A stretch of 64,000 nucleotides of DNA from contig NC_083229.1 in the NCBI RefSeq assembly GCF_032191835.1, positions 107,074,001 to 107,138,000 on the forward strand. The letters are read 5' to 3'. The DNA comes from Heteronotia binoei (lineage: Eukaryota). The position numbers are program-made. Positions 1 to 3,000 of this stretch are shown here, piece after piece; within the stretch, counting starts at the first letter, position 1, and every line of letters begins with the position of its first letter.

Positions 1-3000
1 TGCGAGGGAAGGACACTCCCAAGGCTGCCTGGGACGCGTTGAGTGCGGTGCATGTTAGCACCACTGCTGGTTCCCTCATGGCCTTGACAAGGAGGATGTT
101 CCGCACCGTTATGCCGGCTGGAGGGTGTGTGAAAGATCACATCAAACGGCTAACGGACTGTTTCGTTGAGCTGGAGGCAAGAGGCAAGACTGTAGCTCCA
201 GACGACAGAGTGTACATTTTGCTGTCGTCGTTGCCACCTGAGTACACTCCCCTGATAACTTCTCTGGAGACGGTGGACGTAGCGACCCTGACCATGGAAT
301 ACGTCTGTGCCCACCTGCTTGACTTCCAAGAGAGAATTGCGGCCGTGAGCTGTCCGGGGGTGTCGGCCAGGCAGCGTGCTGTTATCGGTGTGTCCGGGAA
401 GACAGCCAAGAATGAGCCAGCTTTTGCTGCTGGCAGGCGTCCGAAGGTGGAGGAAGTGGAGCCGACTGCGTTTGCAGTCCGTCGCTGCTATGGATGCGGG
501 TCGTCGCAGCACCTGCTCCGAGCTTGCCCTGAGAGGGAGAAGAGGCGGGGGCGTGTGCGGCGAGAGCGGAGGACCGCCAGCCCGTGTGAGGAAGCAACCC
601 GGCTGGTCACGTCTGCAGTAGAGAGCACAGGGTCTGCTTGGATTTTAGACTCCGGGGCAACGAGCCATCTCTGCTGCGAGAAGGAGTTGTTGAAAAACAT
701 TGACAGTCCTGAGCATAAGTATGTGAGATTGGCTGATGGGACCACTGCCAATTCTGTTTGCTCAGGCAATGTGGAATTTCCTGCACTGAAATGTATGTTG
801 CAAAATGTGTTGTATGTACCCTCACTGCAGTCTAACCTGTTGAGTGTTAGCACACTGGTTGACCAGGGATACCAGGTGAGATTTGAGAAAACCTGCTGCA
901 AAATCCTGGGAGGTGGGGGAAAGTTGCTTGTGACAGGAAAGAGGGAAGGTAAACTGTATGTGGTCCAGAGTGATTGTGCCCAGGTGGCTCAGGTGTCGAA
1001 TGAGCCTGTGCACAATAATTGTATACATTTGCTCCATAGGAGACTCGGGCACTGCGGATTTAGGGCGTTAAAGAAAACCCTGGAGCTTGTGCCTAGTTTG
1101 AAAGTAAATCCTTGCAAATGTTACTTGGATTGCCAGGTCTGCAAGAAGACCAAAAGCAAGGCGTGTGCTGTTGCTAAGGAAAGCTCAAGGGAAAGCACAC
1201 GAGCCCTGGAACTAGTCCATTTAGACGTTATTGGCCCATTGCCAAAGAGTCTGTCGGGGAGGAGATACTGCTTGGTGGCCACCGACGACCACACGAGGTA
1301 CGCGTGGGTTTTCACCATGGTGCATAAGTCTGAGGTGTATAAGACATTCACCAAGTGGGTCAAAGCAGTGGAGAGACAATTAGGGGTTAATCTCCTGGCT
1401 GTACAAACCGACAGAGGGGGGGAATTCTTATCTAACCAGATGAAACGTTGGCTGGAGAACAAGGGCATCGCCCACCGTCTGACGAACCCGGCAACGCCCC
1501 GAGAAAATGGGCATGGGGCTGTATTGCAGAATGTGATGTATTGCATGTTAGAGGATGCACAACTGCCAATGTCCTATTGGGCAGAAACCATACATGCAGC
1601 TGTTTTTTTGCAAAATAGGGTTTGGTGTAATACTGTGAAAAATGTGCCTTACAGGTTACTGTTGAACAAGACCCCAGATTTGAGTTCTTTAAAAGTCTTT
1701 GGGTCACGGGCTCGGGTTGGCATCCACTCCACGAGTAGCGGGGAGGGGGATGTCCGGGCAGAGAGCCTAATTTTTCTGGGCTACAAGCCAAGGGCCAGGT
1801 GTTATCGCTTCTGCAATAGCAAAAGCAAGATAACACTTAATAAGAGTGCCCAGTTCAATGAAGAAAGCAGCTGGCCAAGGTTGCACTCCTTGCAGAAACA
1901 ATTTGTCCTGCTGCCAAGTAGCGATAACGATGTTGGAGCGCAGCCCAGAACTCCAGCCCAGGAGGTGGCACCCAGTGGGGCTGGAGAAGGTGAGCCGAAT
2001 GCTGGCACAGAGCCCGACGAGCAGAGTCAGGAGGCAGAGCCTCAAATGCAGGAACTGGAGGTAAAGTGTGAGAGTCAGGAGGTTCAACACCCAATTACAG
2101 GGGCAGAGCAACCAGCCCAGGAGGTGGGAACAGAGCAACCCGAAGAAGACAAAGCTGGTCCAAGCACAGGGCCACGGGTGTCTGCCAGGTCCACCAAAGG
2201 CCAACGTCCCGCTAGGTACAAGTGTCCCTATGTCACTCTGACTGTCAATCCAGACCCACCCGGATTAGAGGAAATGTTAAAAGAAAAGGCTAAGAAATGG
2301 AAAGCCTGGGTGGCAGAGTGCGAGGCAAGGGAGAAGGAGGCTGAAGCCAAGCGTCTGAAAGAGCTGGCTGAACAGGAACACGATGATGTGTTTTACAATC
2401 ATGATGAGTTCCTGAACGAATTCCGGAAAGGGTTCCGAGCTACGTAAATATGAACTGTAATGTTGCTGGTGGACATGTATGTAAACTGTGTAAAGTGTTT
2501 TGGTGCACTGGGTTTAAATAGATTAGGAGGTGTGTTGGAGCAAGAATCTACATAAACCCAGTCTGACAGCTACAGTATGACAGCTGGTGATCTAGCTGCC
2601 AGGCTAGGTCACAGTGACCTGATCAGCAGACCGGCTTGAGCCGGCAGAAGCCAAGTGATGCAATCTGCTGAGTCAGCATGGCCAGGATTGGCTGCTTGGA
2701 CTATATATGATCTGTGTGTGCATCACACAGGTCTCTCCCTGTGAGATGGTGGTTAGGCGAAGCACTTTGTCCGTGGAGGTGATATTGTATAGACTGCACA
2801 AGAGAGCACTTGTTGTGTATATATGTTAATACACCTTTTGGCACTAGTTGCACGTGTAAGCCTGATTTTCTTTCCTGAAGCCCTGTGTCGGGCAAGTCAT
2901 CTCCCTCACTCTGCTACTCCCGCTCCGACAGAAATTCCAATATCAATGAACATTTGTCAAATTACACTGCATATGTAATGCCAAGGGTAGCTTTAGCATT

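What the first reader, a model, noticed from the sequence alone, without database searches (positions are those of the whole stretch)
3..2930. Copia element with an open Gag-PR-IN frame but no RT/RNaseH and a clean deletion of the integrase catalytic Glu
Seen: at least 815 uninterrupted codons encode Gag, protease and integrase. The stop (2447) is only ~70 bp from the PPT and 3' LTR, so there is no room for the ~500-aa RT-RH that follows IN in Ty1/copia. The usual NG-VAER-KNRTL segment reads NG-HGAVLQNV, consistent with an in-frame 4-codon loss removing the E of DDE, while both Asp residues and HHCC remain. The tail is an acidic Q/E/P linker and a charged helix. Inference: this may be a non-autonomous lineage that supplies its own Gag and protease but borrows RT and IN in trans, or a particle-forming or restriction-type Gag protein still under selection. 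Two frame-preserving losses without any stop are more suggestive than random decay.
Basis: partly seen in the sequence, partly recalled or inferred. Interest (0 to 1): 0.66.

Follow-up and report, generated by a model that had tools for sequence, protein, structure and literature searches.

The report
Defective Copia retrotransposon copy in gecko
This is a young but crippled copy of a Copia-type jumping gene in a gecko genome, lacking its reverse transcriptase and one catalytic integrase residue; it is an ordinary kind of transposon wreck and is not shown to be more.

Summary
The sequence facts hold. Window 3-2447 (+) is one open frame of 814 codons plus a stop. It encodes Copia-type Gag (N-terminus outside the window), aspartic protease and integrase. 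No Copia reverse transcriptase or RNase H is found in any of the six frames of the 64 kb. The integrase keeps its zinc-binding His/Cys and both catalytic Asp. It lacks the Glu that 46 of 46 relatives carry exactly 35 residues after the second Asp, through one 4-codon in-frame deletion.

The "acidic tail" is the usual integrase-to-RT spacer plus the short lead-in to RT. The large deletion is not shown to preserve the frame.

The open frame needs no selection. About 15 random substitutions would halve the chance of staying open, and CpG retention points to a recent insertion.

The host is a gecko, and the element lies upstream of RIPK1. The 5' LTR, PBS and target duplication lie outside the window, and no host genome could be searched. 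One-off copy versus non-autonomous sublineage therefore stays open. I favour a one-off defective copy (0.55).

The parts
3..2447 (+). Single open reading frame of the element (Gag-protease-integrase-tail), 814 codons plus stop. It runs off the left edge of the window; relatives have about 75-100 more Gag residues upstream.
   Evidence: 1 stop in this frame against 15-46 in the other five; matches start at residues 74-99 of the relatives.
9..335 (+). Copia-type Gag domain (Retrotran_gag_2), partial.
   Evidence: E 7.2e-17, profile positions 59-166 of 172. PDB 'Copia VLP protein' 8vvw_A, E 5.8e-8, residues 9-180.
486..527 (+). Gag CCHC zinc knuckle (C162, C165, H170, C175).
   Evidence: each in 15 of 15 relatives. 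(invariant in 47 sequences).
639..872 (+). Aspartic protease beta-barrel (Pol_BBD) with D-S-G at 648-656.
   Evidence: E 3.7e-20. (D216, S217, G218 in 15 of 15 relatives).
954..1874 (+). Integrase: zinc-binding N-terminal domain, catalytic core and SH3-like domain. Broken once, by one in-frame deletion of 4 codons that removes the catalytic Glu. No stops and no frameshifts.
   Evidence: gag_pre-integrs, rve, SH3_retrovirus. (H345, H350, C377, C380, D408, D470 kept). (Glu in 46 of 46 relatives, 35 residues after the second Asp; absent here). (PDB 'Integrase' 7z0h_W, E 1.2e-12; PFV integrase).
1875..2444 (+). Tail of the frame: acidic integrase-RT spacer, the short conserved lead-in that precedes RT in full-length relatives, then a last stretch with no detectable relatives. 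RT and RNase H themselves are gone (one large deletion).
   Evidence: the tail aligns with the spacer and lead-in of P0002 and P0119. (R729 shared by at least 90% of 47 sequences). (spacer 104 aa, D+E 0.19; relatives 35-132 aa, D+E 0.11-0.38). (no RT-RNase H, no C-terminal match, no relatives of the tail alone).
2448..2532 (+). Untranslated spacer between the stop and the LTR-like stretch. Purine-rich tract at 2516-2530 is a candidate polypurine tract.
   Evidence: read directly. Function is inferred.
2533..2930 (+). Candidate 3' LTR (398 nt). It starts TG and ends CA. Terminal inverted repeat TGTTGGAG / CTCCGACA matches at 7 of 8. TATA-like motifs at 2702 and 2818. No AATAAA or ATTAAA.
   Evidence: GC and CpG fall after 2930. 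The bounds are unproven, and 2456-2966 is an alternative (pair I2).

Best explanation
This is a recently inserted, dead copy of a gecko Ty1/copia LTR retrotransposon.

What it can and cannot do:
- It still reads as Gag-protease-integrase, so if transcribed it could yield a polyprotein with a normal-looking capsid protein and protease.
- It cannot copy itself. RT and RNase H are removed by one large internal deletion, and the integrase has lost the Glu of its D,D(35)E active site through one 4-codon in-frame deletion.

Origin (inferred, not shown): the two lesions arose in this copy's own history, either as errors of the reverse transcription that made it or as deletions after insertion. The rest of the frame is open simply because the copy is young. 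I assign it no present function for host or element.

Shown: the domain content, the two lesions and the absence of RT-RNase H.
Inferred: the youth, the one-off origin and the lack of function.
For: - Domains and lesions.
- Tail: it is the ordinary spacer and RT lead-in. The end of the frame matches no polyprotein C-terminus, so the frame simply terminates a few dozen codons after homology fades. That is what a deletion running into unrelated sequence gives.
- Stops: 329 of 7326 single-base changes in the frame would create a stop. P(no stop) is 0.63 after 10 substitutions, 0.40 after 20 and 0.16 after 40. An open frame therefore only says the copy has diverged by less than about 1%.
- CpG observed/expected: 0.55 in the frame and 0.33 in the LTR-like part, against 0.11 in the flank 2931-8000 and 0.30 for the whole window. 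This fits little time under methylation decay.
- No second copy or solo LTR in the other 61 kb: blastn and tblastn gave 0 hits.
- No protein above 43% identity among 1.84 billion representatives (52,766 hits at E<=0.001, 150 listed), although the host species' own RIPK1 protein is in the searched set.
- Truncated Copia reading frames are commonplace: by my count, 42 of the 113 hits carry no RVT_2 domain.
Against: - Nothing here counts copies, so "one-off" rests on priors.
- Two separate deletions with no other frame-breaking lesion in 814 codons would also fit lesions gathered over a few error-prone replication cycles of a trans-mobilised sublineage.
- The large deletion spares the candidate PPT and LTR, that is, the 3' cis signals a mobilisable derivative needs.
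- An independent RT-less Gag-PR-IN frame exists elsewhere. It comprises four 845-aa versions differing at 2-5 residues, on contigs of 3.1-3.8 kb, 67% identical to a full-length 1338-aa relative. Such derivatives can therefore persist in more than one version.
- High CpG may partly reflect coding composition rather than age.
- TE frames are often left out of gene annotation, so their absence from protein sets is weak evidence.
Confidence: 0.55

Rival explanations
1. The copy belongs to a non-autonomous Copia sublineage. A master element lost RT-RNase H (and later the integrase Glu) but kept Gag, protease and the terminal cis signals. Its RNA is packaged, reverse-transcribed and integrated by proteins of a full-length partner with matching ends. 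Other copies with the same deletions would then exist in the genome.
For: - The candidate PPT and LTR are retained directly after the truncated frame.
- Gag and protease are well kept: 1 departure each among 69 near-invariant columns, against 11 in the integrase.
- Two lesions with no other frame break.
- There is a parallel RT-less 845-aa frame in four near-identical versions from another source.
- Plant genomes hold many families that keep GAG/PROT, or GAG plus decayed POL domains (PMC13570524, passages).
- Full-length and short forms coexist in a lizard Copia cluster.
Against: - No second copy was seen: 0 in the window.
- No protein is closer than 43% identity in any set searched.
- 7 of the 13 departures from near-invariant columns are also departures in the closest relative P0001, so they say little about relaxed constraint.
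- The open integrase and spacer are not needed under this model, and again only indicate youth.
Confidence: 0.35
2. The frame is an exapted host gene or an element-encoded inhibitor: a Gag (or Gag-protease) protein kept by selection, for instance to interfere with particle assembly of active relatives. Ty1 p22 does this in yeast.
For: - The frame is long and open, with intact gag knuckle and protease motifs.
- There is a precedent for Gag-derived self-restriction in Ty1 (PMC4599808 and PMC8458377; search listing and start of abstracts only).
Against: - An LTR-like end with TG..CA still follows the frame.
- No annotated protein of the host or any other species resembles it above 43% identity, although the host's RIPK1 is annotated.
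- Openness is explained by youth.
- Nothing shows expression or orthology.
Confidence: 0.04
3. The missing RT-RNase H is an assembly artefact, namely a collapse or mis-join near the end of the frame.
For: None was found. It cannot be excluded, because no reads were available.
Against: - The sequence has no N and no tandem array at that place.
- The frame stays continuous into a normal-looking 3' end.
- The separate 4-codon loss is not a typical assembly error.
Confidence: 0.03

Closest known systems
Copia-type polyprotein fragment of the lizard Podarcis lilfordi (P0001; source name 'Retrovirus-related Pol polyprotein from transposon TNT 1-94')
   Same: It is the closest protein found anywhere: 41-43% identity over Gag, protease and integrase. 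It has the same domain order. It shares 4 of the window's 13 unusual residues at otherwise near-invariant columns.
   Different: It keeps the catalytic Glu. It is a 584-aa model that stops inside the integrase SH3-like domain, so it says nothing about RT. It comes from a different squamate family and is only 41% identical, so it is not the same element family.
Full-length Ty1/copia elements (for example P0002 at 1338 aa, P0115 at 1303 aa, and the 1385-aa members of the P0118 cluster)
   Same: Gag, CCHC knuckle, D-S-G protease, integrase, acidic spacer and RT lead-in occur in the same order and align end to end with the window's frame at 28-36% identity.
   Different: They continue into RVT_2 and RNase H. 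34 of 46 aligned relatives have at least 400 further residues (Pfam). All carry the D,D(35)E Glu.
Non-autonomous LTR retrotransposons that keep coding remnants (plant TR-GAG and 'partly degraded' families; BARE-2 as the converse case)
   Same: These elements have LTRs and a retained Gag or Gag-protease frame but lack enzymes. They are thought to be mobilised by autonomous partners (PMC13570524, passages; PMC9744471, two passages).
   Different: Those are defined as multi-copy families, and copy number here is unknown. They are plant elements. This copy also keeps a near-complete but catalytically dead integrase. BARE-2 lacks Gag rather than RT; I saw only its title in a reference list.
RT-less 845-aa Copia frame of the P0119 cluster (unnamed source)
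   Same: It has Gag, protease, integrase and SH3-like domains and no RVT_2. It ends shortly after the RT lead-in. It aligns with the window over residues 2-755 at 28% identity.
   Different: It keeps the catalytic Glu. It belongs to another family, 67% identical to P0002. Its four versions may be copies or alleles of one locus. The similar end point is partly an effect of searching with a query of this length.
Ty1 p22/p18, a Gag-derived self-restriction factor of yeast
   Same: It is a Ty1/copia-superfamily Gag fragment acting in trans on particle assembly.
   Different: p22 is made from an internal transcript of intact elements, not from a deleted copy. No expression, interaction or selection is shown here.

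Membership tests
Ty1/copia (Pseudoviridae-type) LTR retrotransposon | Copia-type Gag with CCHC knuckle | tested here: met
   Retrotran_gag_2 at E 7e-17. C162, C165, H170 and C175 are invariant in 47 sequences. PDB 'Copia VLP protein' at E 5.8e-8. The N-terminus lies outside the window.
Ty1/copia (Pseudoviridae-type) LTR retrotransposon | Aspartic protease with D-S/T-G | tested here: met
   Pol_BBD at E 4e-20. D216, S217 and G218 are shared with 15 of 15 relatives.
Ty1/copia (Pseudoviridae-type) LTR retrotransposon | Integrase placed before RT in the polyprotein | tested here: met
   Integrase follows the protease. After it come the spacer and the conserved lead-in that precede RT in full-length relatives. 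This holds only as far as the remnant allows, since RT itself is missing.
Ty1/copia (Pseudoviridae-type) LTR retrotransposon | RT (RVT_2) and RNase H | tested here: not met
   No RVT_2 in Pfam. A profile of 14 relatives gives 0 hits in six frames of the window at E<=10.
Ty1/copia (Pseudoviridae-type) LTR retrotransposon | Integrase D,D(35)E triad | tested here: not met
   Both Asp are present. The Glu is absent, while 46 of 46 relatives have it 35 residues after the second Asp.
Ty1/copia (Pseudoviridae-type) LTR retrotransposon | Paired LTRs, primer binding site, 5-bp target duplication | not testable with these tools
   The 5' end lies outside the window and no host genome could be searched. 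Only a candidate 3' LTR is seen.
Non-autonomous LTR retrotransposon family with retained Gag (TR-GAG-like, semi-autonomous) | Lacks RT but keeps a Gag frame and terminal repeats | tested here: met
   The LTR is a candidate only.
Non-autonomous LTR retrotransposon family with retained Gag (TR-GAG-like, semi-autonomous) | Several copies at different loci sharing the same internal structure | not testable with these tools
   0 further copies in the window. No close protein in public sets. The collections on offer hold no gecko genome: genome contigs is bacterial and archaeal, and the other two are closed.
Non-autonomous LTR retrotransposon family with retained Gag (TR-GAG-like, semi-autonomous) | Autonomous partner with matching LTR and PBS | not testable with these tools
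   No Copia RT anywhere in the window. No genome to search.
Exapted retroelement gene or Gag-derived restriction factor | Loss of LTRs and cis signals; stand-alone host gene | tested here: not met
   An LTR-like stretch with TG..CA ends and a purine-rich tract still follows the frame. The bounds are unproven.
Exapted retroelement gene or Gag-derived restriction factor | Orthologues at the same locus in other species, under purifying selection | not testable with these tools
   No protein above 43% identity in any species. Syntenic DNA of other geckos was not available.

The most novel reading that the evidence does not exclude
Geckos may carry a vertebrate counterpart of the plant semi-autonomous elements. 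This would be a Copia sublineage that has shed RT-RNase H and integrase catalysis but keeps Gag, protease and an integrase scaffold under selection. It would spread on the enzymes of a full-length partner, or dampen that partner in the way Ty1 p22 does.
Probability: 0.1. Interest if true: 0.55.

Novelty: new member of a known kind. Interest (0 to 1): 0.2.

Why it matters
As it stands it matters little. Deleted, non-autonomous copies are the common fate of LTR retrotransposons, and Copia elements are known in reptiles.

It has modest value in three ways:
- It documents a Copia family that is only 41-43% identical to anything in public protein sets.
- That family appears to have been active recently in a gecko.
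- It gives a clean example of an integrase inactivated by a short in-frame deletion.

If a genome census showed many copies sharing both lesions, with Gag and protease under constraint, it would be a rare vertebrate case of a coding non-autonomous LTR element and worth a closer look.

Tried and rejected
1. Native C-terminus test. I asked whether the last residues of the frame are the native polyprotein C-terminus, which would make the large deletion in frame. A profile of the last 70 aa of 103 relatives gave -1.2 bits, and 238 of 500 shuffles did as well. MAFFT merely scattered those residues. Rejected.
2. Captured or new domain in the tail. A search with residues 625-814 alone scored 865 candidates, none at E<=0.01. 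Pfam found nothing there.
3. Second copy, solo LTR or RT-bearing partner in the window. Searches found none.
4. Fixing the insertion boundary from an interrupted repeat. The flank matches another repeat copy only from 3014 onward, so it gives no boundary.
5. Relaxed constraint on the integrase. There are 11 of 13 departures there, but most are shared with, or not assessable in, the closest relative. Inconclusive.
6. Rfam and tRNA scan: nothing in the window.
7. ESM Atlas. It does not hold the window's protein. Its homologue P0001 gave only generic Copia clusters.
8. Structure prediction, to check the helix in the tail and the geometry of the active site. It was not accepted twice and I dropped it.
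9. TARE1 paper (PMC3701649, outline and abstract). It concerns an LTR end mutation and is not relevant.
10. Literature on RT-less Copia in reptiles. The listings showed none. I read only listings and a few passages, so this is weak evidence that nothing is in print.
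Full report
**What is there.**
Frame 3 of the + strand is open from the first complete codon (base 3) to a stop at 2445-2447. That is 814 sense codons. The other five frames of the same stretch carry 15-46 stops each, so this is a real coding frame.

Pfam places five domains on it:
- Copia-type Gag, residues 3-111, entering the profile at position 59.
- The Pol beta-barrel protease, residues 213-290.
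- The GAG-pre-integrase zinc domain, residues 318-384.
- The integrase core, residues 400-499.
- The SH3-like domain, residues 555-624.

There is no RVT_2 domain. Solved structures that match by sequence are an entry named 'Integrase' (7z0h_W, E 1.2e-12), 'Copia VLP protein' (8vvw_A, E 5.8e-8) and PFV integrase (11 distinct sequences at E<=0.01). Matches to relatives begin at about their residue 75-100. The Gag N-terminus, the 5' untranslated region and the 5' LTR therefore lie beyond the left edge of the window.

**The lesions, counted.**
Integrase is broken once. One in-frame deletion of 4 codons removes a Glu that all 15 and all 46 aligned relatives possess. In 46 of 46 relatives that Glu lies exactly 35 residues after the second catalytic Asp. 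This is the canonical D,D(35)E spacing (established knowledge of retroviral-type integrases). The zinc-binding H, H, C, C and both Asp are kept. One or two single-residue gaps fall at variable columns, and I do not count them as lesions.

RT and RNase H are removed entirely by one large deletion:
- 34 of 46 relatives continue for at least 400 residues.
- A profile of that part, built from 14 relatives, finds nothing in six frames of the whole 64 kb at E<=10.
- Near the end of the frame it finds only the short lead-in.

There are no stops and no frameshifts within Gag, protease or integrase. The gag CCHC knuckle and the protease D-S-G are intact. Of 23 near-invariant Gag and protease columns the window matches 21.

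**The tail.**
- BLASTP against a full-length relative carries the alignment through the spacer and into the conserved segment that precedes RT. The same holds for P0119.
- An Arg in that segment (R729) is shared by at least 90% of 47 aligned sequences.
- The spacer is 104 residues with 19% Asp+Glu. In the 43 of 46 relatives that share the Arg it is 35-132 residues (median 80) with 11-38% Asp+Glu.

After homology fades the frame runs a few dozen codons to its stop. That last stretch matches neither RT-RNase H in any forward frame nor the C-termini of 103 full-length relatives: it scores -1.2 bits and 238 of 500 shuffles do as well. The tail alone finds no relatives (865 candidates, none at E<=0.01). 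"Frame-preserving" is therefore shown for the small deletion only.

**The 3' end.**
After the stop come 85 nt with a purine-rich tract (2516-2530). Next is a stretch that starts TG and ends CA (2533-2930) with a 7-of-8 terminal inverted repeat. TATA-like motifs lie at 2702 and 2818, and there is no AATAAA or ATTAAA. GC content and CpG drop after 2930.

This fits a 3' LTR, but it cannot be proved without the 5' copy. A second reading (2456-2966, 6-of-6 inverted ends) is possible. The flank matches another repeat copy only from 3014 onward, which does not fix the boundary. Under either reading there is no room for RT.

**Host and setting.**
The window also holds:
- Protein-kinase exons (21227-24135, +) and a death-domain exon (32655-33056, +).
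- An alpha/beta-hydrolase exon (43223-43486, +).
- The last exon of a tubulin gene (52068-53150, -).
- A broken gamma-retrovirus-like provirus (59334-63519, +).

The death-domain exon is 100% identical to RIPK1 of the gecko Heteronotia binoei. The next best hits are other geckos at 85-89% (459 hits at E<=1e-10 among 1847 candidates). I searched that gene with this one exon only and joined no exons.

I do not take the window for human. Copia elements are reported absent from mammals and birds (PMC4350176, three passages), and the neighbouring gene is gecko. Copia elements are known in lepidosaurs; for example, a Ty1/Copia element is abundant in the tuatara (PMC7116210, one passage). The element lies about 18 kb upstream of the first kinase exon seen.

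**Relatives.**
The closest protein anywhere is a 584-aa Copia fragment of the lizard Podarcis lilfordi, at 41-43% identity. An exhaustive HMMER pass over 1.84 billion representatives gave 52,766 hits at E<=0.001. None of the 150 best exceeds 43% identity. The family is thus unrepresented in public protein sets, even though the host's RIPK1 is there.

The gecko genome itself could not be searched:
- Genome contigs holds only bacteria and archaea, and I did not use it.
- The window holds no second copy.

Supplementary TE tables of the papers cited might bear on this, but they are closed and I did not see them.

**Does the open frame need selection?**
No.
- In this frame 329 of 7326 possible single-base changes create a stop. 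The chance of remaining open is 0.63 after 10 random substitutions, 0.40 after 20 and 0.16 after 40. A copy less than about 1% diverged from its last working ancestor is expected to be open.
- CpG observed/expected is 0.55 in the frame and 0.33 in the LTR-like part. It is 0.11 in the adjoining 5 kb, 0.29 in the provirus region and 0.30 for the window. This fits a recent arrival in a methylated genome, though coding composition may contribute.
- The window departs from 13 of 69 columns that are near-invariant in 14 full-length relatives: 1 in Gag, 1 in protease and 11 in integrase. At 7 of those 13 the Podarcis relative departs too, and at 3 it has a gap. This gives no clear sign of relaxed constraint.

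**Most likely explanation.**
It is a young, dead copy. The domain content and the two lesions are shown. That the lesions arose in this copy's own history is inferred, whether through replication errors when it was made or through deletion in place. So is the conclusion that it has no function. I put this at 0.55.

**Main rival (0.35).**
It may be a member of a non-autonomous sublineage mobilised in trans.
- In its favour: the 3' cis signals are spared, Gag and protease are the best-kept parts, and there are two lesions with no other break.
- Also in its favour: another Copia family from an unnamed source has an RT-less 845-aa Gag-PR-IN frame. It exists in four versions that differ at 2-5 residues, on contigs of 3.1-3.8 kb, and is 67% identical to a full-length 1338-aa relative. 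That frame keeps its catalytic Glu. Its similar end point is partly an effect of searching with a query of this length.
- Against it: nothing but the absence of any second copy in what I could search.

Exaptation or a p22-like inhibitor (0.04) and an assembly artefact (0.03) have no positive support.

**Comparison with what is known.**
It works like, or rather fails like, the deletion derivatives of LTR retrotransposons long described in plants. There, families that keep GAG/PROT (TR-GAG), or GAG plus decayed POL domains, are common (PMC13570524, passages; the original TR-GAG paper was not seen). Non-autonomous families ride on autonomous partners (PMC9744471, two passages).

It is Copia-derived by every coding feature tested. 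It fails the tests for an autonomous Copia element (RT-RNase H and the D,D(35)E triad). Membership of a non-autonomous family cannot be tested here.

By my count of the table, 42 of the 113 hits lack an RVT_2 domain. Truncated Copia frames are therefore everyday items in protein databases, although many may be cut by contig ends or gene models.

**Verdict.**
It is a new member of a known kind, with interest 0.2.

Noticed in passing
window 59334-63519 (+), running toward the right edge: Gamma-retrovirus-like provirus: Gag_p30, retroviral protease, RVT_1 (two open stretches), RNase_H plus integrase zinc domain, and integrase core. These lie in six open stretches spread over three frames, so there are at least four frame changes in pro-pol. 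No env is seen inside the window.
   Followed up: partly
window 21227-24135 (+), 32655-33056 (+), 43223-43486 (+), 52068-53150 (-): Host genes. RIPK1 has kinase exons and a death-domain exon that is 100% identical to Heteronotia binoei RIPK1. There is also an alpha/beta-hydrolase exon and the last exon of a tubulin gene. The order recalls the RIPK1-BPHL-TUBB2 neighbourhood of other amniotes; those names are recalled, not tested.
   Followed up: partly
window 3014-3205 versus 58535-58611 and 58927-59058: An interspersed repeat just downstream of the Copia element recurs at 79-81% identity (E 3.6e-25 and 2.6e-14) just upstream of the provirus gag. A 22-nt tandem repeat lies within the second copy, at 58979-59028.
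   Followed up: no
proteins P0119, P0394, P0395, P0396 (unnamed source): These are four 845-aa Copia Gag-PR-IN frames without RT, differing at 2-5 residues, on contigs of 3.1-3.8 kb. They are 67% identical to the full-length P0002. This may be an RT-less Copia derivative that exists in several versions.
   Followed up: partly
window 16943-17752 (+), 26309-26977 (+), 34058-34693 (-), 35221-35886 (-), 57279-58190 (+): Long open stretches (212-304 aa) with no Pfam match, several of them in GC-rich parts of the window. They may be exons, CpG-island sequence or provirus leader/gag N-terminus.
   Followed up: no
window 6495-6803 (-): Weak match to the CCDC90-like family (24.2 bits, below the Pfam cut-off of 33.5). 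It may be an exon of an upstream gene or chance.
   Followed up: no
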